A stretch of 64,000 bases of DNA from Nanobdellota archaeon (GCA_018819065.1 JAHJQL010000017.1:35952-99951), one strand, 5' to 3'; shown: positions 3,070 to 22,559, counted from the first letter of the stretch. Notes: generated by a model not told the origin, from the letters alone. Translations and numbers: made by a program.

Positions 3070-5299
3070 TGACATAGAGCAGTTCAAAGAGAAATACAAG
3101 AGCAAACTAAAATCGCAACTAAGGGGAGAAGACCCAGTACCAATAAGCAGCAACGACTATGAAGACTTTAAAAAAGATTATCTTCCAAAACACATGAACT
3201 TTTATGAAAAAGGATGTAACTTAGCTGAGAAAATATTTCACATAAAACCTGACAAAAAAAAAATTCCAGAGTATAAAGAAGCAATAGATATCTGCCACTT
3301 AAACATAACCCCAACAGGTGCAGCGAGTTTTCCAATACTAATGTTTTTAATATTTCTCCTCATAGGACTTTTCTTTGGATTCCTAATACCATTCTTAGTA
3401 GGCGGAAAGCCTAGCATGTTTGTAATAATAATGGCCGTACTTGTCGGATTTGGACTAATAGTTCCGCTTGGAAATCTGCCTTTCTTCTTTGCTAACAACT
3501 GGCGTATGAAAGCAAGCAACCAGATGGTTCTGTGCATATTCTACATAGTTACATACATGAGGCACAGCTCAAACTTTGAATTAGCGGTTGACTTTGCAGC
3601 TGAACACTTAGCCCCACCATTATCAATAGACCTAAAAAAAATTGTCTGGAACATAGAGACTGGCAAATATTCAACAATAAAAGAATCCATGGATGAATAC
3701 CTAGAGACTTGGAAGAAGTGGAACATGGAATTTATCGAGAGCATGCACTTGATAGAATCATCACTTTATGAAAGCTCTGAGAGTCGAAGGCTTGATGCAC
3801 TTGACAAGTCACTAACAGTCATGCTTGATGAGACTTACGAAAGGATGCTTCACTACGCACAAAACCTAAAGTCGCCAATAACAACTCTTCACATGATGGG
3901 AATAATCCTCCCAATACTAGGACTAGTAATACTGCCGTTAGTCGTCAGCTTCATGCCAGAAGTGAAATGGTTTCACTTATTCACGCTTTACAACATCTTA
4001 CTTCCGGGAGCTGTGTTTTACATGGCAAAGCAAGTGCTTTCAACAAGGCCAACAGGTTATGGAGAAACTGACATATCAGAGATTAACAAAGACTTAAAAA
4101 AATACAGGGACGTCATAATAAACATTGGTGGAGGTCTTGAATTAAGAATAAAACCAATCATTATATCAATAATAATTATAGTTGGTTTTCTAATAATAGG
4201 ATTCTCACCACTCATAATGCATGCGATGCTGCCAGAATTTGACTGCAGCATAGGCGACACTTCAAATGGAGTCACCACTTTTAAATGTGAAAACAAGCTC
4301 AACCACGCAGACAGTACCTATCAACCAAAATATTATCTTCTTGGATACAGACCTGAAATGATAGAAGGAGGAGCAACAGGCAAAATCATAGGTCCTTACG
4401 GTCTTGGAGCAATAATTCTTAGCATGTTTATACCAATAGGTCTTGGGGTTGGAATAGGTTTTTATAATAAGTTAAGATCTCAAAACGTCATAAAAATAAG
4501 GGATGAGACAAAGAAATTAGAGCAAGAATTTGCATCTGCACTATTCCAGTTAGGAAACAGGCTAGGAGATGGTTTTCCTGCAGAGATTGCATTTAGCAAA
4601 GTGGCTGATGTAATGGAAGGAACAGTATCTGGAGATTTTTTTGAGAAGGTAAGCCAAAACATAATTAGGAGAGGATACGGCGTTGAACAAGCAATATTTG
4701 ACCCTGATAATGGAGCATTAAAAGATTTTCCATCACCACTTATAGAAAGTTCGATGAAGGTATTAATTGAAAGCAGCAAGAAAGGTCCGCTAGTCGCAAG
4801 CAACGCACTAATTAACATATCAACATATGTCAAAGAGATGCATAGAGTAGATGAGAGACTAAAGGATTTAATGTCAGATATTATAAGCAGCATGAAATCA
4901 CAAATAGCATTTTTAACACCAGCAATATCAGGCATAGTCATAGGAATAACAAGCATGATAACAACAATCCTCGGAAGCCTTGGAGAAAAACTCTCAGAAC
5001 TAGCAGCTCAAGCAGAAGGAGCATCTACTGGTGGAATACTAAGCATGTTTGGAACAGGAGTGCCAACATTCTACTTTCAATTCATAGTAAGTTTATACGT
5101 AATACAAATAGCATTCATCCTAACAATCATGATTAACGGCATAGAAAACGGTGCTGACAAACTAAACGAACGATTCCTGCTTGGAAAAAACATGACTAGA
5201 ACAGCAATTATATATACGTCAGTAGCATTCGTTGTAGTCATGCTCTTTAATATAATAGCAGCAACCATACTAGGATCAGTAACGAGTAATTTGACTTAA
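3059..5299 (+). CDS. FlaJ/TadC-like polytopic membrane protein of type IV pilus/archaellum assembly
   Basis: 746-aa protein with multiple hydrophobic helices clustered in two blocks separated by cytoplasmic regions. It overlaps the upstream secretion ATPase by 11 nt, the classic FlaI-FlaJ / TadA-TadC arrangement. Confidence 0.7.
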   Translation: MTSDDIEQFKEKYKSKLKSQLRGEDPVPISSNDYEDFKKDYLPKHMNFYEKGCNLAEKIFHIKPDKKKIPEYKEAIDICHLNITPTGAASFPILMFLIFLLIGLFFGFLIPFLVGGKPSMFVIIMAVLVGFGLIVPLGNLPFFFANNWRMKASNQMVLCIFYIVTYMRHSSNFELAVDFAAEHLAPPLSIDLKKIVWNIETGKYSTIKESMDEYLETWKKWNMEFIESMHLIESSLYESSESRRLDALDKSLTVMLDETYERMLHYAQNLKSPITTLHMMGIILPILGLVILPLVVSFMPEVKWFHLFTLYNILLPGAVFYMAKQVLSTRPTGYGETDISEINKDLKKYRDVIINIGGGLELRIKPIIISIIIIVGFLIIGFSPLIMHAMLPEFDCSIGDTSNGVTTFKCENKLNHADSTYQPKYYLLGYRPEMIEGGATGKIIGPYGLGAIILSMFIPIGLGVGIGFYNKLRSQNVIKIRDETKKLEQEFASALFQLGNRLGDGFPAEIAFSKVADVMEGTVSGDFFEKVSQNIIRRGYGVEQAIFDPDNGALKDFPSPLIESSMKVLIESSKKGPLVASNALINISTYVKEMHRVDERLKDLMSDIISSMKSQIAFLTPAISGIVIGITSMITTILGSLGEKLSELAAQAEGASTGGILSMFGTGVPTFYFQFIVSLYVIQIAFILTIMINGIENGADKLNERFLLGKNMTRTAIIYTSVAFVVVMLFNIIAATILGSVTSNLT

Positions 5300-7584: not shown

Positions 7585-7660
7585 CGAGCCAGCCCAAATA
7601 AAATATAGACACGACGACTTTGATTTTTTGCCTTCGGCATCGTTGCACTAAAATTTCGTC

Positions 7661-7924
7661 CTAAACGTTATCTTCGAAATGTTGGTTGTTAAAACAGTCA
7701 TCACACATACTATTATGCCAATCTTTGTTATGAGCTGAGATTTGTTTATTGCATTTTTTGCAGTTATAATTCATATCTTCATCATGTTTTTTATGGAATG
7801 TTTTCATTTTCTCTTGAATATCTTTGGGTCCTAAAGTTTCGATGAAAGCTCCGTCTTCCCAAAGTTCATCTTCATCATCTTTCAAGTTCTCTTCTTCATC
7901 CATTTTAGTACCTATTTTTATCAA
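7661..7924 (-). CDS. small Cys-rich zinc-ribbon protein
   Basis: 87 aa with CKKCNKQ...H...CDDC (C4/CHCC-type). It overlaps the 3' end of the WYL gene by 20 nt on the same strand, so they are likely co-transcribed. Confidence 0.45.
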   Translation of the reverse strand: MIKIGTKMDEEENLKDDEDELWEDGAFIETLGPKDIQEKMKTFHKKHDEDMNYNCKKCNKQISAHNKDWHNSMCDDCFNNQHFEDNV

Positions 7925-8411
7925 AGTTGTCTGGAATTGTATAATCTTTATTGGTCAATTTTACAGTAACAATCCTACTTGTTCTGAATTTTCTGATAGC
8001 TTTTCTCAAATGGCAGTAGCCAATGACATATTTTCTTGTTTTATGGTAAACATCAATTTCTCTTTTTCTTGTTTCAGCAGATGCCATATCAAAATAGCCA
8101 ATTTCAATTGTTTTTTGATTATTAAAAGCGTTTTCAATCTTTCTGTAAGCTAACTCATTAATTTCATTATTGAATGTGTCATATCTTCTCCTCAAGATAG
8201 TTTTCTTTGTTTTCTCGTTTTCCTTTTTTGGGAGTGATTTTTCTATCTTTTTTATGATTACCTTTAAACCTGTTCTATCGGCAATTTTTTCATCATAATG
8301 GTCTAATTCCCAATCTTCTGAAGGATTTACAATTAATCCTTCATCAAACACTTTTAAAATCTGATGTATTTGTACTGCTTCTTTTGTTGATAAGTTTATG
8401 GAAATATTCAT
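7905..8411 (-). CDS. WYL-domain protein (putative ligand-sensing transcriptional regulator)
   Basis: The C-terminal segment IEIGYFDMASAETRKREIDVYH..RKYVIGYCHLRKAIRKFRTSRIVTVKLT matches the WYL-domain pattern (Y..R.i.P...wYl.gyc..r...R.FRl.RI). Confidence 0.6.
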   Translation of the reverse strand: MNISINLSTKEAVQIHQILKVFDEGLIVNPSEDWELDHYDEKIADRTGLKVIIKKIEKSLPKKENEKTKKTILRRRYDTFNNEINELAYRKIENAFNNQKTIEIGYFDMASAETRKREIDVYHKTRKYVIGYCHLRKAIRKFRTSRIVTVKLTNKDYTIPDNFDKNRY

Positions 8412-8422
8412 TTTGTGGATGA

Positions 8423-9325
8423 TTATTTACTCTTGTCTTGTAATTTCTTCTTTGTTTCAGGTTCAGCCAAATAGCTCTCTCTTGATGTAACAGGACGACC
8501 TAATTCTTTCTCTGTTTCTTTTCGTGCATTGCCTGCTACTCTTCCGCCCCTTTTGGCAGCACCTTCAACTTCTTCATAACCTTGTGCATCTTCTTTTCTC
8601 GTGATTTCAGTGGATACTCTTTCTCCTAACATTGAAAATATTAACTCTAAGTCATTCATATGATCTCTCAGATTTTCTCTTTTTAATCCTTTGAATTTCT
8701 TATATTCGCTTGGAGTCATGCCAAAAGTGGCTTTTGATATTTCTGCTGTGAGTATTGCATAATTTCTTTCTTCCAAAACGCCTCTTTTTTTCCATTACAT
8801 AAAAATCATAGATTTTTAGGTTGCCAGAAAACAATGTTTTCTGAGCACATCTGTTAATTCATCTCTTATAGCAATACCTCTAACTCTTTTTTCTATCCAG
8901 TCATCAGAATATCCCTTTGCTTTGTATAGTTCTCTCATTCGTTTTTGGGCAAGTTCAGGATTCTCTATTTCCTGCACTCTCTGATAACCTACTTCTGCGA
9001 GCCATTGTTTGAAAGGCTTTGCTTTTTTAGATGGAATAGATTGTATTATCCTAAAAGCGTTTTTTGTATTGACACAATCAGTAAGATAGGATTTACCATC
9101 AGCAGATACTAATTTCAGTTGTCCGATTTTTGCGGACAACTCAAACCCTTCTTCAGTAAGCCTTTTTTTCAGGTCAGACCAGTATTTCCTTGCTCTTCCA
9201 GTTTCTGTCAATACTTCTACAATGTCAACTACTGAAAACCACCATTCATCATTAAACCAAGTCCTTCTAATCTCCTTGCCTTGAAATACCACTAATGCTT
9301 TATCAAATTTAGACATTTTTCCCAT
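8423..9325 (-). pseudogene. DinD/Bro-N-domain DNA-damage-inducible protein D homologue, disrupted by frameshift/in-frame stop
   Basis: The N-terminal ORF (8816..9325) has a Bro-N signature (FDKALVVFQGKEIRRTWFNDEWWFSVVDIVEVLT...KYW). Its frame ends ...ELTDVLRKHCFLAT*. The downstream ORF (8423..8776) begins at a TTG, and in its frame the upstream residues read WKKRGVLEERNYAILTAEISKATFGMTPSEYKKFKGL, the DinD C-terminal region. The break lies next to a T9 run (8783-8793). Confidence 0.6.
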
Positions 9326-9728
9326 TACTAATATCTGCTTAAATAATATATCCTACAATAATCCTAAAATAAATTGTAATATAAAGAATTTTCGGTTAAA
9401 AACGCATAATTATTCGATAAATAATTTCTTGTTACAAACCAGATGTTTGTGATAGTATATTACTAGTTGGGATACAAAAAAAGGTACCCAAAATTAAACT
9501 AATTTTAGTACCAAAAAATATACTTTTTTGTGTACCTTAAAAGGTACCACATTTTAAGACAGGCGAGAAATCACGTATAACTAGGACAAGATATATAAAT
9601 CTAAGCATCCATTTTTATACTATGGGAGCTGAAACGTCCGTTTCGCAAACTACTCCTTAAAAAACAATAATTAGAATCGCAGAAAAACCATTTTATCGAC
9701 GAGAAGAGATATTCGAAAAAGACGTCTT

Positions 9729-9750
9729 ACACCGTTTATATTCAATTCAG
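9729..9750 (+). repeat. copy of the intergenic motif acaccgtttatattcaattcag, flanked by a palindromic aagacgtctt
   Basis: Matches taacacYGaTTATATtCAAt copies at 6687, 11709 and 10515. Confidence 0.4.
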
Positions 9751-9767
9751 AAAAAACGTCTTTATTT

Positions 9768-10049
9768 TTATTGGTTTGGGGCTCTCTCGTAGACTTCATC
9801 GTGATGCCCAAAGTCAACAAACGAAATTGTATCAGATTCTTTTAGAAATTTGAATACAAGCACAAAGTGTCCTAGATGAACTCGTTTTCTGTCTTTCATG
9901 TCATATCTTAAATTCTTGTAATGTTCAACATCTTTGGAAGTTATTACTTCTTCAATTTTCTTCAGAATTCGTTCATACATCACTTTGTCTTTCTTTGAAA
10001 ACTTGTTGAGAATGTCTTGTAAGTAAGGCTTTATCTCATAATGTCTCAT
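9768..10049 (-). CDS. RelE/ParE-family toxin (cassette 2)
   Basis: 93 aa, ...RYDMKDRKRVHLGHFVLVFKFLKESDTISFVDFGHHDEVY. It is paralogous to 6063..6323, and its start overlaps the antitoxin stop by 4 nt. Confidence 0.75.
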   Translation of the reverse strand: MRHYEIKPYLQDILNKFSKKDKVMYERILKKIEEVITSKDVEHYKNLRYDMKDRKRVHLGHFVLVFKFLKESDTISFVDFGHHDEVYERAPNQ

Positions 10050-10291
10050 ACTTTGTCCTCAATAATTTTTCTCAACTCAGCCATATTCTTGAACTTTATG
10101 CCTTTCTGCTTCTCGATTTTATTCAACTTCTCAATGTACTTAGGTCTCAAAGCAGGCTCTAAAATATCCTGTTCATAACGCTGAGCCATCACTTCAATAG
10201 CCTCACTCTTATCCTTAAGACCAAATTGAGCTTTCACAATATTCAACACTCTATTCGTATCATCATCAATCTTTATAATTGCCTGAACCAT
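10046..10291 (-). CDS. putative antitoxin of RelE cassette 2
   Basis: 81 aa, paralogue of 6324..6566. Confidence 0.65.
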   Translation of the reverse strand: MVQAIIKIDDDTNRVLNIVKAQFGLKDKSEAIEVMAQRYEQDILEPALRPKYIEKLNKIEKQKGIKFKNMAELRKIIEDKV

Positions 10292-10397
10292 AATATCACC
10301 TTAACATGATATTAATTCGGTATTAATATATAAATTTTTTGATTCTACAAGCCCAAAACCAAACTATTCTCAAATAAAAAGGTGCTTCGCACTGTAA

Positions 10398-10540
10398 GCG
10401 TTTTTTCTGAACTCTTCGCAAAGCTTCGATTTGCTCGTCGTCTCATCTCTGTTCAACCCAGCTCTTAGCTTGCTTTCGCTCGCAGAAGGAGCTCCATGAG
10501 GAACCGAAAATATAACAGTGATTAAGCGACATATTACTCG
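10398..10540 (+). repeat. conserved TA-cassette upstream element (copy 2), locally GC-richer than surroundings
   Basis: Shares gcgttttttctgaactcttcgc and gaaaatataacagtgatta with 6611..6709. The ORF-track ORF 10370..10594 falls inside it and is probably spurious. Confidence 0.5.
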
Positions 10541-10611
10541 GGGGCACTTTAGATTATATTGAGGCACTCTTAATAGAAAACTATAAGAAAGCAAAGCTTA
10601 TTTTACATTAT

Positions 10612-11574
10612 ATGGAATCAGTTTTCAAACAAAGAATAGGTTTTAATGGAGATTTGAAAGAAATCTCAAAAGACATTTGTAGAGATTTTAATCTTGGAGA
10701 CTTTGTTGATTGTAAAATAATTCTCACAGGTTATGAAGATTTCAATTTCTCTTTAGAAACCAACAACGGCAAATTCTTTGTAAAAATATTCTCAAATGAA
10801 AGAACAATTGATGATTGTAAAAGAAATGTTGATGTAATCGTAAAGTCATTAGAAGTCGGCGTTTTTGCCCCTAAATTATACAAATCAAAACAGGGATATT
10901 TACATCTTCTGTATATTGATCAATCAACATTAAGAATTTGCGTTATGGATTTTATTGATGGTAAAGATTTCTTTACTTCTAAAGCAGCAATCACTCATGA
11001 AGACATGCTTTCATTAGTATGCCAAGCATCTTTAATTAACTCAATAAATATTGAACCAGCAAAAATTTATGATTCATGGGCGATTACTAACTTTCTTCTG
11101 GAATTTGAAAAGAAAAGTCAATACTTAGAAAAAGAAGATTCTGACATTATTAAACCCCTTGTTGAAAAATTTAAGAATATCAAAATCGCATCATTACCTC
11201 ACTGCTTTGCACACGGGGATATAATCAGAACTAATGTTATAAGAGATAAAAATGATAAGATTTGGATTGTGGATTTTTCTGTTTCAAATTATTATCCTCG
11301 CATTCAAGAATTAGCAGTGTTGGCTTGCGATATCTTATTCAATAGAGATAACAAAGAAGAAAGTGAACAAAATCTTAAAGATGCTTTAGAAGAATATCAA
11401 AAAACGATAAAATTGACTACAAGAGAAATTGAAGTTTTACCAACTTACATTAAACTTGCTCATGCCATGCATGTATTATGTGCAACCTATGAGAAGAAAG
11501 CTAAAAAGAATGATTCTAAAGAGAATGAATACTTTCTCAACATTGGAAAGTCTGGATTAAGACAAATAAATTAA
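10612..11574 (+). CDS. phosphotransferase-family protein (APH/choline-kinase/homoserine-kinase-II-like)
   Basis: Catalytic-loop-like HGDIIRTNVI and metal-binding IWIVDFS motifs of the APH/ePK-like kinase fold. Confidence 0.6.
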   Translation: MESVFKQRIGFNGDLKEISKDICRDFNLGDFVDCKIILTGYEDFNFSLETNNGKFFVKIFSNERTIDDCKRNVDVIVKSLEVGVFAPKLYKSKQGYLHLLYIDQSTLRICVMDFIDGKDFFTSKAAITHEDMLSLVCQASLINSINIEPAKIYDSWAITNFLLEFEKKSQYLEKEDSDIIKPLVEKFKNIKIASLPHCFAHGDIIRTNVIRDKNDKIWIVDFSVSNYYPRIQELAVLACDILFNRDNKEESEQNLKDALEEYQKTIKLTTREIEVLPTYIKLAHAMHVLCATYEKKAKKNDSKENEYFLNIGKSGLRQIN

Positions 11575-11708
11575 AATCTCTTTCTAAGAGTGCCCAAAAT
11601 AGTATGATAAATGCGAAATGTATTTGCCGATGAAGTGCCCCCTGCGTCATACGCTGCGGAAAACTAAAGTTTTCCTTGCCCCTCACCCAAAAAAAGGCTC
11701 GGGGGAAA

Positions 11709-12189: not shown

Positions 12190-12230
12190 AGGAAAAAAAA
12201 GAAAAAAAATCAGCAAGACTTACATCTTGC
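12190..12230 (-). terminator. hairpin (gcaagacttacatcttgc) plus T8/T8 run downstream of the Zn-ribbon gene
   Basis: On the minus strand the stop codon sits inside a 6-bp stem-loop followed by TTTTTTTTCTTTTTTTT, consistent with archaeal oligo-T termination. Confidence 0.45.
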
Positions 12231-12363
12231 CAATTCTAAACATCTTAGTTCCACAAGTTGGGCAGATTCCCTTAACACAGTCTCTACCATTAGCCATTTT
12301 ACTGGCTTTTGCGTCTTTCATAGTCCTTTTTGACTTGCACTTGACACAATATGCTTCCACCAT
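12220..12363 (-). CDS. small CxxC...CxxC zinc-ribbon protein
   Basis: Internal ATG at 12363 gives 47 aa: MVEAYCVKCKSKRTMKDAKASKMANGRDCVKGICPTCGTKMFRIGKM. The longer ORF-track start would read through the tRNA-Phe 3' exon. It lies immediately downstream of the tRNA on the same strand. Confidence 0.6.
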   Translation of the reverse strand: MVEAYCVKCKSKRTMKDAKASKMANGRDCVKGICPTCGTKMFRIGKM

Positions 12364-12408
12364 TCTAGTACACCTCATATTTTTTAATGAATTATTAGGA
12401 AAAAAAGT

Positions 12409-12617
12409 GGGGACACCGGGACTTTCACTTACGGCTTCGAATTGCAACGCAATTCCTTCGCCCGAAGGGAAGGATTTCGTCGTCAAGGTTCTCAAAAAGC
12501 GAAGCTTTTTGGCACCTCAAAAACGATTTCTCGTTTTTGTTGGGGCGAAACCGTTGTTTTGAACCCGGGACCACTAGATCTTCAGTCTAGTGCTCTCCCA
12601 GTCTGAGCTATGTCCCC
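12409..12617 (-). tRNA. tRNA-Phe (GAA) with a 135-nt intron in the T-loop (non-canonical position 59/60)
   Basis: The 5' exon (12617..12558, minus strand) is GGGGACA TA GCTC AGACTGGGA GAGC A CTAGA CTGAAGA TCTAG TGGTC CCGGG TTCAAA. The 3' exon (12422..12409) is T CCCGG TGTCCCC A. All stems pair perfectly, the anticodon is GAA, and the mature length is 74 nt. The intron spans 12557..12423. An oligo-T run follows the 3' end. Confidence 0.85.
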
Positions 12618-12939: not shown

Positions 12940-14448
12940 TTAAAGTTTTTTGTTAAGCATGACAAATGTTTGCTTGTTATAAATTAAAGCTTTTAACGTT
13001 TCTTTTAAATCAGAGATTTTCACCCTTACTTGGTTTTCAGTATCCCTATCTCTTATTGTAACATCCTTCTTTTCCAAGCTATCAAAATCAACTGTTACAA
13101 CGTAAGGAGTTCCTTCTTCTGATGCCCGCAAATACCTCTTACCTATTGATCCTTTCTCGTCGTATTTGCATAGGAATTCAGCATTTAAATCAGTAAATAT
13201 TTTTTCTGCAAGAGCAGTTAATTCTGGTTTTTTTAGCAATGGATAAACTGCGACTTTGAAAGGGGTAAGTTTAGGTGAAAGCTTTAATATAGTTTTTCCT
13301 TCTTCTTCGCTTTTCTTATCATAATTTAAGTCTAAAACTGCAAAAGTCAATCTTCCTGTTCCAAATGCTATCTCCAGTATGTGTGGTATCTTCTTTTCAT
13401 TGGTCTGTTCATCTAAGACTTCCATGTTTGTCTTTGAGAATTTTGCGTGTTGTTTTAAGTCATAATCAGTCCTGTCATGCACTCCACAGATTTCTGTCCA
13501 TCCAAAACTGTTTAAGTTGACTTCCACGTCCCAAGCATCATCTGCGTAGAATGCTTTTTCATCTGGTGAGTGTTGTGTAAGCCTAATTTTTTCTTCTGGA
13601 ATTCCAATCTCCAAAAATATCTTATGTGTCAACCAGATCATGTATGCGTAAACCTTGTTTTTTAGAAACTTTCTTTTCATAGCATCTTCTAAGCTAATAG
13701 TTTCAGGCTTTTTATTCTTGCTTTGGAGTTCCCAAGCCCAGAAAGTCAGTTTGTCTTTTTGTACATTGTCAAACTTTGGAAAGTTGTTCTTTTGGTCTTT
13801 GAATATGAACAGCTGAGCCTCTGCTTGTGTAAACTCTCTTGTTCTAAGAAGGTGTTGTCTTGGGCTTATCTCGTTTCTGTAAGCATTTCCTATTTGAAAC
13901 ACTCCAAAGGGTAGTTTTTTCCTGAAAAAATCGTAGTATCTAAGAAACTCTAGATAAGTCGTTGTTGCAGTTTCTGGCCGGTTATACGCCTCGTTTCCTA
14001 TGCCCACAACTGTTTTCATCATTAAATTGTGCTGCTCGACTTTTGAGTCAAAGATTGTTTGACAAGAAGGGCATTTAACATTGTTTTTTGATAAGAACGA
14101 TTCAAAACTAGTTATTTTCTTATCAGGAAATAGTTCTTGTAGTAGTTGCTCTGCTTTAAATGAAGACTTGCATTTCTTACAAGTAATCATTGCATCTGTA
14201 AATCCACCAAGGTGACCTGATGCTTCCCAAACAATCTTTGGCATTATTGTTGGGCATTCAACTTCTAAAAAGTCATTTTTAAAGAATACATCCCTAACAA
14301 CGTTTTCAATGTTGTTTTTCAGCATTTTCCCAAGCGGTGCGTAGGTGTAAAAGCCTGCAAGTCCACCATATATCTCTGGTGTTGGACCCCAGATAAATCC
14401 TTTCTGCTGCATAAAAGATATTAATTCCTGCATGAACTGTTTAGTCAT
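12940..14448 (-). CDS. glyS: glycyl-tRNA synthetase, archaeal/eukaryal-type class II
   Basis: N-terminal ...PEIYGGLAGFYTYAPLGKMLKNN... and a class II motif region ...FQIGNAYRNEISPRQHLLRTREFTQAE..., followed by a C-terminal anticodon-binding domain. Confidence 0.85.
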   Translation of the reverse strand: MTKQFMQELISFMQQKGFIWGPTPEIYGGLAGFYTYAPLGKMLKNNIENVVRDVFFKNDFLEVECPTIMPKIVWEASGHLGGFTDAMITCKKCKSSFKAEQLLQELFPDKKITSFESFLSKNNVKCPSCQTIFDSKVEQHNLMMKTVVGIGNEAYNRPETATTTYLEFLRYYDFFRKKLPFGVFQIGNAYRNEISPRQHLLRTREFTQAEAQLFIFKDQKNNFPKFDNVQKDKLTFWAWELQSKNKKPETISLEDAMKRKFLKNKVYAYMIWLTHKIFLEIGIPEEKIRLTQHSPDEKAFYADDAWDVEVNLNSFGWTEICGVHDRTDYDLKQHAKFSKTNMEVLDEQTNEKKIPHILEIAFGTGRLTFAVLDLNYDKKSEEEGKTILKLSPKLTPFKVAVYPLLKKPELTALAEKIFTDLNAEFLCKYDEKGSIGKRYLRASEEGTPYVVTVDFDSLEKKDVTIRDRDTENQVRVKISDLKETLKALIYNKQTFVMLNKKL

Positions 14449-14560: not shown

Positions 14561-16051
14561 ATGCAAGAACAAATTAAATGGGTTTCTGAAGATGTAAAAA
14601 GAATTACGCTAAACAATATTCCATTAGATGAAATAATAAATAAGAGATATAACCAACAAGACGTGCTGTCATTTGCAGCTGATAGAAGCTTAAGAAACCT
14701 GCCAGAAGATTATAAAATGCTTACAGAACTTTTAGGTAAAGATGTTGTTTTTTACACGACAGGACTTCAAGTTCTCGCTGAAAAGAATCCGAGAATGCTA
14801 CAAAAAATAAATGATGAACAAACAAATGAATATACTCAAAAGCAGAGCATAAAATTAGAAGGTGGAAGGGCTGAATCAGACATAACTGCAGGAGTCTTAT
14901 TAAGTAGTGGTCTTGACAATGGATTTATTAAGATAGGATATCTGGAACCAAAAAACATAGATAAGAAAAACAGGACTCAAAATCTCGATAACATCGAACT
15001 AATAATATCAAACATTCTCAAAGGCGACCAAAAAGCAAATTTTGTAAGAATTACCAATAATGGAACATCATTAGATGTAGAACCACTTAAAGAAAACTCC
15101 CTTTATTCTGACGCATATTATGGAGAAGTTCCAAAAGACATAATCACTGCAAGATTTATGAAACTAATTGCAGAGGCAGCACATATAACTTATACATTAA
15201 CAAATGAAATACCAAAAGAAACAATTCATAGAGCCAAACAAGAAAAAATAGCTGAAATTAACAAGAAAAGAGAAATCTCAGATGAAGAAGCGTTAAGTTC
15301 TTATCATACATACAAAATAATTAATGCATTTAATCTAAGCGAGGAGTTTAAAGAATTATTTTTGCCAATCCAGACAGGTATGAACAACTATGAGAACAAC
15401 CACACAGTAATAATCAGCGACAGGTCACCAAAAAATAGAAAGGAAAAGAATTTTGATGGAAACAAGATTGATCAAGCACCATTCACAAGAGAACTGACGT
15501 TAATTCTAGATTGTGTCCCCGGGTACTTCAACCTTGAAGAGAGAGCCAACTTAGAAAGATTTGCAAGCATTTGCTATAATAAAACAAGCGATGAACTTGA
15601 GCAGGATTTGGAGTATCAAGCATCAAATCACGGGGAGAGGTTTACCAGATCAGTATTAAATGCCAATCACTGCATCAAAGAAGCAGAAAGAATCTACAAC
15701 ACAAAGGGTGGAACACCATTCTTTTTTGAGTATGCAAAAAAATTATCAGATGCAAAAGTGCATTATCAAATGGCAGAAGATTCCATGAAAGTTTTAAACA
15801 AAAACAGTGCGTTAGCAGAAGATGACGCTTTAGAAGTAATTGCTATGATAAAAGAAAGTTTTAGTAACAAGCTCAGATTTGTCAACGAGAACGATTACAA
15901 GATCGATTTAGAGCTTTACAATAAGATTTCTAGACCGTGGATTGCGGAGTCTGAAGGCCAAAGAGTAAACCCAATATATAGAGATATTTCTCAGAAGCCG
16001 ATGACAATAAAGCAATTAGAGGATGGTCTGAAATACACGAAGAATCCTTAA
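14561..16051 (+). CDS. hypothetical protein
   Basis: 496-aa ORF with coding-like composition and no recognisable motif. Its 3' end overlaps the convergent PhoU-like gene by ~120 nt. Confidence 0.5.
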   Translation: MQEQIKWVSEDVKRITLNNIPLDEIINKRYNQQDVLSFAADRSLRNLPEDYKMLTELLGKDVVFYTTGLQVLAEKNPRMLQKINDEQTNEYTQKQSIKLEGGRAESDITAGVLLSSGLDNGFIKIGYLEPKNIDKKNRTQNLDNIELIISNILKGDQKANFVRITNNGTSLDVEPLKENSLYSDAYYGEVPKDIITARFMKLIAEAAHITYTLTNEIPKETIHRAKQEKIAEINKKREISDEEALSSYHTYKIINAFNLSEEFKELFLPIQTGMNNYENNHTVIISDRSPKNRKEKNFDGNKIDQAPFTRELTLILDCVPGYFNLEERANLERFASICYNKTSDELEQDLEYQASNHGERFTRSVLNANHCIKEAERIYNTKGGTPFFFEYAKKLSDAKVHYQMAEDSMKVLNKNSALAEDDALEVIAMIKESFSNKLRFVNENDYKIDLELYNKISRPWIAESEGQRVNPIYRDISQKPMTIKQLEDGLKYTKNP

Positions 16052-16844
16052 GAGCAGACAAAATCAAATCATTAATTTTTTTTCTCGAGTCATAGAATTG
16101 TTTTGCTTTAGTCGAATCATAAGAAAAATATATTTCTGTGACGATATACAAATTATCAAGAACCATTTTTGCAATAAGTTGAGTATTTTTAGATATTTTT
16201 TTGGGCTTTAAATGAGCAAAAAACTTAAAATCATTGCCAAGTTTTTCAACAGCCCATATAAGTGTATAATTCATAAAAGAGCCTGATAGTTCTGGGTTTT
16301 TGTGCATCGCCCGCATACAATAATGCGCAAGCTTATTATTCGCTTGTTCTAACTCAAGCAAATCAGATAAAATAGACTCATCCTCAGTTTCAAGATATTG
16401 AACAATTTTTCTAATCTTTTCACGCAGTAAAAAAATCAACCTATTTTGTATGGATTCAAAATCAGAATTATTCATTTCAGATATTGATTTTACGAGCACA
16501 TAATTCTTTTCTTTTTTTACAATTTCGAACATCGTTGCTTCAACCTTAAGACTTTCTTTTACCTGATTTAGCTCTGACTCATCAGAAAAAAGCACAGTTA
16601 TTTCATCATAACCCCTCTTTGAGAGATTATCAAATTTTCGACGTGTAAGAGAACCATATTTAGAAGCATCTATTACAACTTTAGTTACTGGAGCAACATA
16701 GCTTTCAGGCTTTATCTCAAGCACACCTTTAACAGAGTCTATGTTGAGAATATCACCTTTCTTAAGATTCCACTGCTTAACCCATTTATGCGGAAGGCTA
16801 ACTCCCAAGCTGCTTGAACTCTGTTGGATGACTTTTCTTTGCAT
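15930..16844 (-). CDS. PhoU-domain regulator with N-terminal AbrB/SpoVT-like swapped-hairpin domain
   Basis: N-terminal ...SSLGVSLPHKWVKQWNLKKGDIL (AbrB/MazE-like), followed by PhoU-like helical repeats (...IQNRLIFLLREKIRKIVQYLETED...LELEQANNKLAHYC...). ATG at 16844 is preferred over the TTG at 16862. Confidence 0.7.
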   Translation of the reverse strand: MQRKVIQQSSSSLGVSLPHKWVKQWNLKKGDILNIDSVKGVLEIKPESYVAPVTKVVIDASKYGSLTRRKFDNLSKRGYDEITVLFSDESELNQVKESLKVEATMFEIVKKEKNYVLVKSISEMNNSDFESIQNRLIFLLREKIRKIVQYLETEDESILSDLLELEQANNKLAHYCMRAMHKNPELSGSFMNYTLIWAVEKLGNDFKFFAHLKPKKISKNTQLIAKMVLDNLYIVTEIYFSYDSTKAKQFYDSRKKINDLILSALKDSSCISDHPLIALLSSASEKYLYILGLLFGLQTPQSTV

Positions 16845-16968
16845 AAAGAAGAAGCCAATCAAGAGAACTATTTAAAGTTTTTGAAAAATAGCTATAATAT
16901 ATATTATATAGTGAAAATCTATATATACTTAAATAATACCACTAACTAATAACAACAAAGGTGATAAT

Positions 16969-17922
16969 ATGAATTCAATAAAAAAAATCGCGTATATAAC
17001 AATGCTCTTCGCAGCGACGTATTTTGCAGGTTGCACAAACAACGATAACAACACACAACCACAACCAGAAAAAGAAGTTGTAACAACAGACACAACTAAA
17101 GTATCCGAAGATAAAGAAACAATTGAAGACGAAATAAAACAATATTCAAGAACAATAAAAGTTCCAATAAACGGACAAACATACACTTACACAGAATTCT
17201 TCGAAAGCGATTTGCTGATATCAACCGAACTTCAAAAGACGAAAGGAGACACAATCGAGACATACACCGATGTAAATCTTGATTCAATAATAGGAAATCA
17301 TCCTGATGATAAGTATACAAAATCAAAAGGACGGGGAGAGGGGACGGGACTTGATATCAGAGCGACAAACAACTCATACTATAAATGGGACTTTGACAAC
17401 ACACTCAGAATAGAATATCCTGACTTAACAAAAGAAAGCGCAGAAATAAATGAAGCAGTCAAAAGCAAGCTAGAACAAGAAAACAAGCAATACCAAAAAG
17501 CACAAGAAGCAATAGTGGACTATTTCAATCAAGAAATAAAAAATGCGGTAACTAGAGCAAAAAAAACATATAACCAAAAAATAGACGAGAAAGACGGGTT
17601 TAAAGTAGAAGCTGAAATCGACAGCCTTAACAAACTAACAATGTATGATGCAGACAGCAGCGGAGTTCTTGGAGACAACCCGGAAGATTATGTTGAACTT
17701 GGATACGTCCGATCTGAAGCAAGCGACTATACCCGAATGACAAATGAGAATTTTATGTCTGGATGGGGAGGGGGAGATTATAGCATAAGAAAAGGCGGAC
17801 ATCTATCAAACAAGATAATCTCAAAGGTTCAAGAAGCAATGAAGACAACATTCACAGACATATTCAAGAACTACAAAAAACAATACCAAAAACAAGTAAT
17901 TGAAAATATAAAGAAGGAGTGA
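16969..17922 (+). CDS. putative lipoprotein/secreted protein
   Basis: Signal peptide with a lipobox-like AGC (MNSIKKIAYITMLFAATYFAGC), then a hydrophilic acidic/Lys-rich body. Confidence 0.55.
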   Translation: MNSIKKIAYITMLFAATYFAGCTNNDNNTQPQPEKEVVTTDTTKVSEDKETIEDEIKQYSRTIKVPINGQTYTYTEFFESDLLISTELQKTKGDTIETYTDVNLDSIIGNHPDDKYTKSKGRGEGTGLDIRATNNSYYKWDFDNTLRIEYPDLTKESAEINEAVKSKLEQENKQYQKAQEAIVDYFNQEIKNAVTRAKKTYNQKIDEKDGFKVEAEIDSLNKLTMYDADSSGVLGDNPEDYVELGYVRSEASDYTRMTNENFMSGWGGGDYSIRKGGHLSNKIISKVQEAMKTTFTDIFKNYKKQYQKQVIENIKKE

Positions 17923-18563
17923 AAATAACATTGTTATTCAAAACAAAAATTAAAAAAACACAGATAAACACTGACGAAGTCTACAACACAATCCAAGAAG
18001 GCCTAAAAGAAATGGAATCAAAAGGAATTGACAGGATAACAGTTGCATTGGGCGAAACAGAAAAAAATCCAAATGCCAGTGGTTGGATTGAAATGAACCA
18101 AAGTAACTATTATGACTACGAACTTCTAGACTCTGATGAACAAAAAATGGTTGATGAAAAAAAGACATATGCAGTAATGGCATTAGTCATAGAAAACCCT
18201 TTTAATGCAGTAAAATACAACGGAAAAGGTATGGAGAATTTCACCAGAACAAGAGTATTTCCATTACTTCCGACTTTAAAGCCAAAATCAAATTTATATT
18301 ATGTTGTTTCAGGAGGATTCTTAACAGGTGAAGACTTAAAGCAATACGTATCTGAAGTGGTAAAGGCAAATGAAGACTGGACACCTGAGAATTTAAAGAA
18401 TGTTTTAAATCAAAACATGCAAGAGTATCAAGAAAAAACAAAACAAGCACTAAGAGACCACACAGGACTACAATACAGACTTGAAAAGATGGAAGAAAGA
18501 AAACATTCACCTCAAGAAGAAATACTTAACACAATAAAAGAACAGATTTACAAGAAAAATTAA
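17919..18563 (+). CDS. hypothetical protein (GTG start overlapping upstream stop, GGAGG upstream)
   Basis: The GTGA overlap with the 16969..17922 stop suggests translational coupling. No recognisable domain. Confidence 0.5.
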   Translation: MKITLLFKTKIKKTQINTDEVYNTIQEGLKEMESKGIDRITVALGETEKNPNASGWIEMNQSNYYDYELLDSDEQKMVDEKKTYAVMALVIENPFNAVKYNGKGMENFTRTRVFPLLPTLKPKSNLYYVVSGGFLTGEDLKQYVSEVVKANEDWTPENLKNVLNQNMQEYQEKTKQALRDHTGLQYRLEKMEERKHSPQEEILNTIKEQIYKKN

Positions 18564-22400: not shown

Positions 22401-22559
22401 TGGGGACGGAGGGATTTGAACCCTCATCTGACGGTATCTCCACGAATGGACTCCTTTAAATCATCGGCGAAGCCTCATCGCTCCAAGTACTGGAGCCGAC
22501 CATTCTAGCCAGGATGTACCCATTTTTGTACTAAACAAAAAGGTTTATACTACGCCCCC
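22401..22559 (-). tRNA. tRNA-like gene, probably intron-rich (identity unresolved)
   Basis: On the minus strand the 3' end is a canonical T-arm and acceptor: GAGGG TTCAAAT CCCTC CGTCCCC A, then CC plus oligo-T. 159 nt upstream, GGGGGCG-UA pairs 7/7 with CGTCCCC (one G-U) and carries U8/A9. A TATA-like TTTAAATATAAAAAC lies ~27 nt upstream of that G. Between them there are ~85 extra nt, and I could not fold a unique D/anticodon arm by hand. Confidence 0.4.

What the first reader, a model, noticed from the sequence alone, without database searches (positions are those of the whole stretch)
12409..12617. tRNA-Phe(GAA) interrupted by a 135-nt intron inside the T-loop
All four arms and the acceptor fold perfectly once 12423-12557 is removed. 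The splice point lies between T-loop positions ~59/60, far from the canonical 37/38 site. Non-canonical T-loop introns are hallmarks of certain archaeal lineages and require a relaxed-specificity splicing endonuclease. The intron itself contains a stable hairpin (CCTTCCCTTCGGGCGAAGGAATTG). Two ORF-track ORFs (12139.., 12227..) are artefacts of this region.
Basis: seen in the sequence. Interest (0 to 1): 0.6.

Follow-up and report, generated by a model that had tools for sequence, protein, structure and literature searches.

The report
tRNA-Phe with a T-loop intron
A phenylalanine tRNA gene of a tiny DPANN archaeon is interrupted in its T-loop by a 136-base intron of a known archaeal type, and that intron carries a 51-base mobile hairpin element that also sits in other genes, a possible clue to how such introns are gained.

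Summary
On the minus strand, exon 1 (12558-12617) plus exon 2 (12408-12421) give a perfect 74-nt tRNA-Phe(GAA). The intron is 136 nt (12422-12557), at position 59/60. ARAGORN and Rfam instead call a continuous tRNA (36.3 bits) with a damaged acceptor stem and T arm. Intact orthologs, which match the spliced product except for a compensated 7:66 pair, score 71-72.5 bits.

The junctions form a bulge-helix-bulge only in the 59/60 register: the T stem, a 3-nt bulge, and a 4-bp helix UUCA:UGAA. Five other T-loop introns in relatives show the same pattern. The host is a DPANN "Nanoarchaeota" MAG, and GlyRS-Ssb-tRNA-Phe synteny is conserved. So this is a new member of a known kind of intron.

The intron also contains a nested 51-nt two-hairpin element:
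- A second window copy (8797-8847) splits a Bro-N/DinD gene, with an exact filled versus empty site and no target duplication.
- In relatives, the element alone is a 37/38 intron of tRNA-Phe and a 59/60 intron of tRNA-Gly.
- It also separates extra copies of the tRNA-Phe 3' end.

Splicing itself, the endonuclease, and the rest of the genome were not seen.

The parts
12558..12617 (-). Exon 1 of tRNA-Phe(GAA): tRNA positions 1-59 (60 nt, with one extra D-loop base). It ends in T-loop TTCAAA.
   Evidence: 98% identical to the 5' part of the intact orthologous tRNA-Phe in L006.
12422..12557 (-). 136-nt intron at tRNA position 59/60 (T loop). It is highly structured.
   Evidence: The intron alone folds at -50.6 kcal/mol, z = -5.7.
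12408..12421 (-). Exon 2: T60, the 3' strand of the T stem (CCCGG), the 3' strand of the acceptor (TGTCCCC), and discriminator A73.
   Evidence: T66 pairs with A7, whereas relatives have C66:G7, a compensatory change.
12560..12563 (-). 5' strand of the central 4-bp BHB helix (H): T-loop U54-A57 (UUCA).
12424..12427 (-). 3' strand of the H helix: intron UGAA, 3-6 nt upstream of the 3' splice site.
12421..12423 (-). 3' bulge (A, G | U60). Predicted cleavage is between 12422 and 12421.
   Evidence: The cleavage position within the bulge follows the established BHB rule and is an inference.
12557..12559 (-). 5' bulge (A58, A59 | A). Predicted cleavage is between 12558 and 12557.
   Evidence: In the MFE fold this is part of a 5 x 3 internal loop, so this side of the motif is relaxed.
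12546..12554 (-). 5' strand of the 9-bp helix that closes the intron (ACGGUUUCG). It overlaps the degenerate 3'-end-like stretch.
12431..12439 (-). 3' strand of the intron-closing helix (CGAAGCCGU).
12541..12557 (-). Degenerate look-alike of the tRNA 3' end (ACAACGGTTTCGCCCCA). ARAGORN and Rfam use it for their continuous tRNA model.
   Evidence: Similarity to exon 2 at this position has P about 0.004-0.009.
12488..12542 (-). Nested copy of the ~51-nt two-hairpin mobile element: hairpin A 12518-12539, a linker ending in GCC, hairpin B 12493-12511, then GAGAA.
   Evidence: Covariance model R1: 55.9 bits, E = 6e-10. Hairpins.
12454..12474 (-).
12400..12406 (-). T7 run, two bases after the distal 3' end. 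It is the likely archaeal transcription stop. No such run follows the proximal pseudo-3' end.
   Evidence: sequence. The function is inferred.
8797..8847 (+). Second copy of the same element, inserted in a Bro-N/DinD-type gene (8423-9325, minus strand) and antisense to it.
   Evidence: R1: 71.3 bits. Removing exactly 51 nt restores D-E-W as in intact homologs. Nucleotide-level filled versus empty site against L219.

Best explanation
This is the genome's syntenic tRNA-Phe(GAA) gene, interrupted between T-loop positions 59 and 60 by a 136-nt archaeal endonuclease-type (bulge-helix-bulge) intron.

Proposed mechanism:
- The whole 210 nt is transcribed up to the T7 run after the distal 3' end.
- In the precursor, T-loop bases U54-A57 pair with UGAA near the intron's 3' end. 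This 4-bp helix sits between the T stem and a long intron-internal helix, and it exposes the two splice sites in bulges.
- The tRNA splicing endonuclease (EndA) cuts after A59 and before U60.
- An RtcB-type ligase joins the exons into a normal 74-nt tRNA-Phe, and CCA is added afterwards.

Shown: the exon structure, the junction motif, orthology, and conservation.
Inferred: transcription through the intron, cleavage, and ligation.

The middle of the intron is a nested copy of a ~51-nt two-hairpin mobile DNA element. The element is structurally neutral for the splice motif. In relatives it can be the entire intron of a tRNA.
For: (1) The spliced product is a perfect cloverleaf with GAA, A73 and the loop TTCAAAT.
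(2) It differs from the intact tRNA-Phe of relative L006 only at positions 7 and 66 (G:C to A:U), a compensatory pair that involves the distal exon. Other relatives also covary at 4:69, 5:68 and 6:67.
(3) Intact orthologs score 71-72.5 bits with Rfam tRNA. The continuous model in the window scores 36.3.
(4) The BHB appears only in register 59/60: H = WWWW, h = WWWWW. Five more T-loop introns in relatives behave the same way: tRNA-Phe in L017, L029 and L061, and tRNA-Gly in L004 and L020. Element-free 3'-end duplicates (L082, L093 dup2) fail the test.
(5) The precursor MFE forms the acceptor stem, T stem, H helix and 3-nt bulge without constraints, with z = -6.4.
(6) GlyRS-Ssb-tRNA-Phe synteny is conserved in many Woesearchaeota/Nanoarchaeota MAGs. 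No other tRNA-Phe is in the window.
(7) A T7 run follows the distal 3' end but not the proximal one.
(8) Position 59/60 is a documented archaeal intron position (PMC4090602). DPANN lineages carry EndA variants linked to many disrupted tRNA genes (PMC5829648).
(9) The allele was assembled identically from an independent run.
(10) The element is a family with 95% paired stem cells and several pair types per position. It forms the whole 37/38 intron of tRNA-Phe in the closest relative L087, where it scored 33.8 bits without being in the training set and has a good BHB.
Against: - There are no RNA data, so splicing is inferred.
- EndA and RtcB were not found among the roughly 40 window ORFs scanned, so the enzyme type is unknown.
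- The 5' side of the motif is not a clean 3-nt bulge in the MFE fold.
- The intron contains two T5 runs, which can act as archaeal terminators. The same runs occur in the L087 and L004 introns.
- Only 64 kb of the genome was seen, so a second intact tRNA-Phe elsewhere cannot be excluded.
- The L004 tRNA-Gly that carries the element in its T loop has two acceptor mismatches and a weak D stem. That example may be a decaying gene rather than a working intron.
Confidence: 0.8

Rival explanations
1. The continuous tRNA called by ARAGORN and Rfam (12542/3-12617) is the working gene. The perfect 3' end 136 nt downstream is a leftover direct repeat, for example an att-type duplication left by an integrative element, as seen downstream of tRNA-Phe in relatives.
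For: - Both tools call it. Rfam gives 36.3 bits against a gathering score of 29.
- Relatives L006, L003, L093 and L082 do have an intact tRNA-Phe followed by exact copies of its 3' end.
Against: - The continuous model has G3.G70 and C6.U67 mismatches and only 3 of 5 T-stem pairs. It loses the G53:C61 pair, has an 8-nt T loop, and lacks an A73 discriminator.
- It scores half of what intact orthologs score.
- No T run follows it.
- The compensatory 7:66 change involves the distal copy.
- No integrase or other element body lies between the repeats. The interval is only 136 nt.
Confidence: 0.05
2. The gene is a pseudogene, killed by insertion of mobile DNA into its T loop. A functional tRNA-Phe lies elsewhere in the genome, and the BHB-like pairing is a by-product of the element's sequence.
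For: - The element clearly inactivates a protein gene in the same window.
- L004's element-bearing tRNA-Gly shows signs of decay.
- There are T5 runs in the intron.
- The rest of the genome was not seen.
Against: - Both exons are intact across a divergence at which GlyRS is only 66-72% identical, and the only two changes are compensatory.
- In the window, the H helix is formed by non-element intron sequence (GUGAAAG) with 4/4 Watson-Crick pairs, so it is not an accident of the element's own end.
- The locus is the syntenic, apparently single tRNA-Phe position in relatives.
- Archaeal genomes normally carry one gene per isoacceptor, as stated in PMC3293823.
Confidence: 0.1
3. The intron arose by duplication of the 3' exon. 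An ancestor had an intact tRNA, a spacer with the element, and a second 3' end, as L006, L003 and L093 have now. Both 3' ends were usable, the proximal copy then decayed, and splicing to the distal copy became obligatory. This concerns origin and is compatible with the best explanation for present function.
For: - The first 17 nt of the intron resemble exon 2 (P about 0.004-0.009).
- In L006, L003 and L093 dup1, the distal copy lies behind the element's UGAG and could form the same H helix and bulge (H = WWWu, h = WWWWW).
- The distal copies track lineage-specific acceptor changes.
Against: - In the window the element abuts the proximal remnant, not the distal exon. 65 unrelated nt lie between the element and exon 2, so the layouts are not collinear.
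- The other five 59/60 introns show no such remnant.
- A simpler history is an older ~85-nt intron into which the element later inserted.
Confidence: 0.3

Closest known systems
Non-canonical archaeal BHB tRNA introns at position 59/60 (Crenarchaeota and Nanoarchaeota; Marck and Grosjean 2003, as reviewed in PMC4090602)
   Same: Same position. Same logic: the exons form a normal cloverleaf and the splice sites lie in bulges that flank a 4-bp helix. The host is archaeal.
   Different: The host is a DPANN Woesearchaeota-like MAG. At 136 nt the intron is, as far as I recall, long for a non-canonical intron. It contains a nested mobile element. The 5' flanking helix is imperfect.
Disrupted tRNA genes of DPANN archaea with broad-specificity EndA (ARMAN-2 epsilon2 type, PMC3239211; L3-loop alpha4 types in Woese- and Pacearchaeota, PMC5829648)
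   Same: Same superphylum. Many introns at unusual positions: the orthologous tRNA-Phe of relatives carries introns in the D arm, at 37/38, near 45/46, at 53/54 and at 59/60. Standard tRNA finders miss or misread them.
   Different: The endonuclease of this genome was not seen, so its type and specificity loop are unknown.
Families of similar introns shared between different tRNAs and positions in Thermoproteales ('intron transposition', Fujishima et al. 2010, cited in PMC4090602; mechanism unknown)
   Same: One sequence family occurs at 37/38 of tRNA-Phe (L087), at 59/60 of tRNA-Gly (L004), and inside the 59/60 intron of tRNA-Phe (window).
   Different: Here the same family also occurs outside tRNA genes. 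One copy has an exact filled versus empty site in a protein-coding gene, which shows DNA-level insertion. The lineage is different and the element has a defined two-hairpin structure.
Intron gain and tRNA-fragment duplication through integration of mobile elements at tRNA genes (Caldiarchaeum model, PMC3293823; SSV- and pNOB8-type att duplications)
   Same: Relatives show intact tRNA-Phe genes followed by exact direct repeats of the 3' end (L006, L003, L093, L082).
   Different: The intervals are only 85-135 nt with no recombinase gene. In the window the proximal copy is at most a degenerate remnant. No integrase was found in the ORFs scanned.
Small non-autonomous hairpin repeats that insert without target duplication (IS200/IS605-derived MITEs or 'PATEs', and REP/REPIN-type elements). 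This comparison is from my own knowledge and is a lead only.
   Same: About 51 nt, two conserved hairpins, dispersed copies, precise insertion with no target-site duplication and no long terminal inverted repeats.
   Different: No associated transposase was seen. No conserved target motif could be established from the few flanks. Membership was not tested.

Membership tests
tRNA-Phe | Cloverleaf with anticodon GAA, discriminator A73, and the conserved T-loop and G53:C61 pair | tested here: met
   Spliced product. It is identical to the 72.5-bit ortholog except for the compensated 7:66 pair.
Archaeal BHB (endonuclease-spliced) tRNA intron | The exons alone reconstitute a canonical tRNA | tested here: met
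Archaeal BHB (endonuclease-spliced) tRNA intron | A central 4-bp helix flanked by two 3-nt bulges that hold the splice sites, in the correct register | tested here: met
   H = 4/4 Watson-Crick pairs only at 59/60. The 3' bulge is AGU and the 5' bulge is AAA.
Archaeal BHB (endonuclease-spliced) tRNA intron | Outer helices h and h' on both sides (strict hBHBh') | tested here: inconclusive
   h is the 5-bp T stem and is met. h' is one C:G pair, then a 1 x 2 internal loop, then 9 bp. The MFE fold shows a 5 x 3 internal loop instead of a clean bulge. This is a relaxed form.
Archaeal BHB (endonuclease-spliced) tRNA intron | The host encodes the splicing endonuclease EndA and an RNA ligase | not testable with these tools
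Archaeal BHB (endonuclease-spliced) tRNA intron | Spliced tRNA and excised (often circular) intron observed as RNA | not testable with these tools
   No RNA data were available.
Shared or 'transposed' archaeal tRNA intron family | The same intron sequence occurs in different tRNA genes or at different positions | tested here: met
   R1 hits in the L087 tRNA-Phe 37/38 intron, the L004 tRNA-Gly 59/60 intron, and the window tRNA-Phe 59/60 intron.
Integrative-element att duplication at a tRNA gene | Direct repeats of the tRNA end that flank an element encoding a recombinase | tested here: not met
   The interval is 136 nt with no ORF. The proximal repeat is degenerate. No further copy of the 3' end occurs in the window beyond a chance-level 3-mismatch hit. 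No integrase was found in the scanned ORFs.
Non-autonomous mobile DNA element (MITE-like) | Several dispersed copies, and at least one filled versus empty site with exact boundaries | tested here: met
   Three copies in the window and 13 distinct copies overall. A 51-nt insertion is present in the window gene and absent in L219, with flanks ACAGATG|AATGGAA.
IS200/IS605-derived MITE | Related autonomous element with a TnpA (Y1) transposase, and a conserved target tetra- or pentanucleotide 5' of the insertion | not tested
   No transposase was seen in the window. The flanks are too few for a target consensus.
Known Rfam RNA family for the intron or element | A match at or near a family's gathering score | tested here: not met
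   Only sub-threshold chance-level hits were found (AaHKsRNA22 at 17.9 bits, IMES-1 at 14.9 bits). There are no C/D boxes.

The most novel reading that the evidence does not exclude
The 51-nt two-hairpin element is a mobile DNA element that creates archaeal tRNA introns. It inserts at the DNA level without target duplication. Its conserved 3' end (UGAG-CA) can pair with the T-loop UUCA, or after slight change with an anticodon loop. This would instantly make the central helix and 3' bulge of a BHB next to an existing tRNA stem. Insertions into tRNA genes would then be rescued by the splicing endonuclease and persist as introns, while insertions into protein genes simply break them. That would give a concrete mechanism for the unexplained 'transposition' and gain of non-canonical archaeal tRNA introns. 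The tRNA-Phe plus element plus duplicated 3'-end arrays in relatives could be intermediates of this process.
Probability: 0.3. Interest if true: 0.75.

Novelty: new member of a known kind. Interest (0 to 1): 0.5.

Why it matters
For annotation: standard tRNA finders report a damaged continuous tRNA-Phe here. Similar T-loop introns are probably among the "missing" tRNAs of DPANN genomes (PMC5829648 notes incomplete tRNA sets).

For evolution: how archaeal tRNA genes gain non-canonical introns is an open question (PMC4090602). This locus and its relatives show one small structured element in four settings: as a whole intron at two different tRNA positions, nested in a larger intron, as a proven DNA insertion in a protein gene, and next to duplicated tRNA 3' ends. 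The question therefore becomes testable in a defined clade with ordinary genomics and RNA sequencing.

Tried and rejected
- Continuous tRNA model (ARAGORN/Rfam): rejected as the functional form because of stem mismatches and half the ortholog score.
- Splice registers 58/59 and 60/61: no BHB.
- C/D-box sRNA in the intron: no boxes.
- Rfam match for the intron or element: none.
- Integrated element flanked by tRNA 3'-end repeats in the window: no second repeat, and no integrase in the scanned ORFs.
- Metagenome scan with GlyRS gave only 4 loci, none new and useful.
- Viral contigs: the tRNA-Phe 3' end as an attP candidate gave 0 hits. The loose element core gave 120 or more hits, but none passed the covariance model. 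That run serves as a negative control.
- BHB at the Bro-N/DinD insertion: absent by hand (Wu--), so that copy is read as a disruption, not an mRNA intron.
- Duplication and decay as a general origin of 59/60 introns: only the window shows a remnant.
- Homology of the non-element intron parts to other 59/60 introns or to any fetched locus: not significant.
- More tRNA-Gly orthologs in the GTPase-RFC gap of other relatives: none found.
- Identity of the candidate disrupted tRNA at 22401-22559: unresolved.
- MAFFT alignment of all ten element copies was structurally inconsistent. A six-copy model plus Infernal realignment was used instead.

Full report
WHAT IS THERE

On the minus strand, 12617 down to 12408 reads GGGGACATAGCTCAGACTGGGAGAGCACTAGACTGAAGATCTAGTGGTCCCGGGTTCAAA, then 136 nt, then TCCCGGTGTCCCCA, followed by C and a T7 run.

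ARAGORN and Rfam both report a continuous tRNA-Phe(GAA) at 12542/3-12617 (Rfam 36.3 bits). That model has several defects:
- G3.G70 and C6.U67 mismatches in the acceptor stem
- only three T-stem pairs
- an 8-nt T loop
- no A73 discriminator

Joining 12558-12617 to 12408-12421 gives a 74-nt tRNA with 7/7 acceptor pairs, 5/5 T-stem pairs, the loop TTCAAAT and A73. The intron is 12422-12557, 136 nt, at position 59/60.

IS IT MORE THAN CHANCE, AND WHICH MODEL IS RIGHT?

- The unconstrained fold of the 210-nt precursor pairs the 5' end with the distal 3' exon (-85.9 kcal/mol, z = -6.4).
- Intact orthologous tRNA-Phe genes of relatives score 71-72.5 bits with the same Rfam model.
- The L006 gene is identical to the window's spliced product except at positions 7 and 66, where G:C has become A:U. 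This compensatory pair involves the distal exon.
- The same 261 nt were assembled from an independent sequencing run.

THE HOST AND THE LOCUS

The neighbouring GlyRS (12940-14448, minus strand) is 100% identical to a protein of an NCBI "Nanoarchaeota archaeon" MAG. Its relatives are Woesearchaeota, Nanoarchaeota and Pacearchaeota. The window has 33% G+C and encodes AglB/STT3 and other archaeal genes.

The order GlyRS, Ssb-like OB protein, tRNA-Phe is conserved in many relatives, so this is the orthologous tRNA-Phe gene. No other tRNA-Phe is in the window.

THE SPLICE MOTIF

I tested the three possible registers using the geometry of the archaeal bulge-helix-bulge. In that geometry, the four exon bases before the 5' bulge pair with intron bases 3-6 before the 3' splice site.

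Only 59/60 works: UUCA (U54-A57) pairs with UGAA in four Watson-Crick pairs. The T stem is the outer helix, and AGU and AAA are the bulges. On the intron side, the outer helix is one C:G pair, a small internal loop, and a 9-bp helix (ACGGUUUCG:CGAAGCCGU). The motif is therefore strict at the 3' site and relaxed at the 5' site.

The same register and helix are found in five other T-loop introns that I located in relatives with a purpose-built finder: tRNA-Phe in L017, L029 and L061, and tRNA-Gly(CCC) in L004 and L020.

Position 59/60 is a documented archaeal intron site (PMC4090602). DPANN lineages are known for disrupted tRNA genes and for EndA variants with extra loops (PMC5829648, PMC3239211). 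In the relatives, the orthologous tRNA-Phe carries introns in the D arm (L004, L026), at 37/38 (L087, L088, L020, L063, L058, L061), near 45/46 (L080, L017), at 53/54 (L087) and at 59/60.

A MOBILE ELEMENT INSIDE THE INTRON

The 5' half of the intron contains two A/T-armed hairpins joined by a linker that ends in GCC, followed by GAG. The same architecture recurs in relatives.

A covariance model built from six copies found 13 distinct copies, all in the window's close clade. It found none in 678 kb of viral contigs pre-selected for the core motif. Across the 13 copies, 181 of 191 stem cells are paired, and several stem positions show three or four different pair types.

Copies that were not used for training include:
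- the entire 37/38 intron of tRNA-Phe in the closest relative L087 (33.8 bits, with a good BHB)
- both spacers in L093

In L004 the element is the whole 52-nt T-loop intron of a tRNA-Gly(CCC). That tRNA has two acceptor mismatches and may be decaying.

The window has three copies: the one in the intron (12488-12542), one at 8797-8847, and a weaker one at 9485-9535.

The 8797-8847 copy lies inside a Bro-N/DinD-type gene. Removing exactly 51 nt fuses ORFs 8816-9325 and 8423-8776 into a 282-aa protein. That protein is 90-96% identical to intact homologs, which all read ELTD-E-WKKRG at the junction. At the nucleotide level, an intact homolog (L219) reads ACAGATG|AATGGAA where the window reads ACAGATG[51 nt]AATGGAA, with no target duplication. 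I found no BHB at that junction by hand, and the insert carries an in-frame stop codon. That copy is therefore a plain disruption.

In three independent contexts (the L004 intron, the L087 intron, and the DinD insertion), the boundaries set by the context agree with the model's boundaries to within one base.

HOW THE INTRON AROSE IS NOT SETTLED

Relatives L006, L003 and L093 have an intact tRNA-Phe followed by GGGATTTTTCAAA, then the element, then an exact copy of the lineage's own 3' end. L093 has three copies of the 3' end in all. In those relatives the element's UGAG could form the same helix with the T loop.

The first 17 nt of the window's intron resemble exon 2 (P about 0.004-0.009). This suggests a decayed proximal 3' end, and it is the stretch the standard tools latch on to.

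Three things argue against a simple duplication-and-decay history. The layouts are not collinear. The other 59/60 introns show no such remnant. The non-element parts of the intron have no detectable relatives. An older ~85-nt intron later invaded by the element is at least as likely.

WHAT WAS NOT SHOWN

- There are no RNA data.
- No EndA, ligase, transposase or integrase is among the ORFs scanned.
- The intron holds two T5 runs that might terminate transcription.
- Only 64 kb of the genome was seen.

VERDICT

This is a real, very probably functional tRNA-Phe gene with a T-loop (59/60) endonuclease-type intron. It is a new member of a known kind, in a lineage where such introns are expected, and standard tools misread it.

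The added value is the nested 51-nt mobile element. It links tRNA introns at two positions, a proven DNA insertion in a protein gene, and duplicated tRNA 3' ends. That link gives a testable lead on how archaeal tRNA introns are gained (PMC4090602, PMC3293823).

Noticed in passing
window 22401-22559 (minus strand): Candidate second disrupted tRNA, missed by ARAGORN and by Rfam at gathering level. It has a perfect T arm (GAGGG-TTCAAAT-CCCTC), a 3' acceptor strand CGTCCCC plus A plus a T8 run, and a matching 5' strand GGGGGCG 152 nt upstream. The D stem is GTAT/GTAC with a hairpin insert in the D loop. There are about 85 excess nt, so probably two or more non-canonical introns. Rfam gives a weak tRNA-clan (tmRNA model) hit of 23.3 bits. 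The anticodon and identity are not resolved, and no Phe anticodon loop was found.
   Followed up: partly
window 8423-9325 (minus strand), insert 8797-8847: A Bro-N/DinD-type gene is split into two ORFs by a precise 51-nt insertion of the two-hairpin element. There is no target duplication, and the insert contains an in-frame stop codon. The rest of the gene is otherwise intact (90-96% protein identity to intact homologs), which points to a recent insertion.
   Followed up: yes
window 9485-9535: Third, weaker copy of the element (29.5 bits), in an intergenic stretch and flanked by GGTACC-containing repeats.
   Followed up: no
L006 4898-5021; L003 4892-5014; L093 3223-3460; L082 about 2502-2665: An intact tRNA-Phe is followed by one or two exact extra copies of its own 3' end, 85-135 nt downstream. 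In L006, L003 and L093 the spacer contains GGGATTTTTCAAA plus the element. The distal copies carry each lineage's own acceptor-stem variants. This could reflect gene conversion, recent insertion with a long duplication, or an alternative spliceable 3' exon. It is unexplained.
   Followed up: partly
L004 1597-1721: A tRNA-Gly(CCC) whose 52-nt T-loop (59/60) intron is exactly the element. The acceptor stem has two mismatches and the D stem is weak, so the gene may be decaying. The orthologous L020 tRNA-Gly has an unrelated 35-nt 59/60 intron plus a 37/38 intron.
   Followed up: partly
L087 4442-4595: In the closest relative, tRNA-Phe has two introns. One is a 48-nt 37/38 intron that is a copy of the element, with its 3' end changed to UCGG so that it pairs with the anticodon loop. 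The other is a 32-nt intron at 53/54. A further element copy lies just upstream (4350-4407, opposite strand).
   Followed up: partly
L004 about 4840-4880; L026 about 4836-4856; L017 4606-4775: The orthologous tRNA-Phe genes carry introns at other unusual places: in the D arm (41 and 20 nt) in L004 and L026, and three introns in L017 (anticodon stem, variable region, and T loop).
   Followed up: no
window 12220-12372 (minus strand): A real 50-aa DUF5679 zinc-ribbon gene lies just downstream of the tRNA (Pfam E = 3e-12). The longer ORFs that overlap the tRNA on both strands are artefacts.
   Followed up: yes
window 7600-11600: An accessory island lies downstream of tRNA-Phe: a WYL-domain protein (7905-8411), the disrupted Bro-N/DinD gene, a ParE toxin plus DUF2683 pair (9768-10291), and an APH-family kinase (10612-11574). 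No integrase was seen.
   Followed up: partly
window 14561-18563: Relative to the RFC-GlyRS adjacency in relatives, the window has about 4 kb of extra genes between GlyRS and RFC. These include a MazE-domain protein and three ORFs without Pfam hits.
   Followed up: no
L002 (contig end at 3430): An independent assembly of the same locus breaks a few bases after the element inside the intron. This is expected if the element is repeated in that genome.
   Followed up: no
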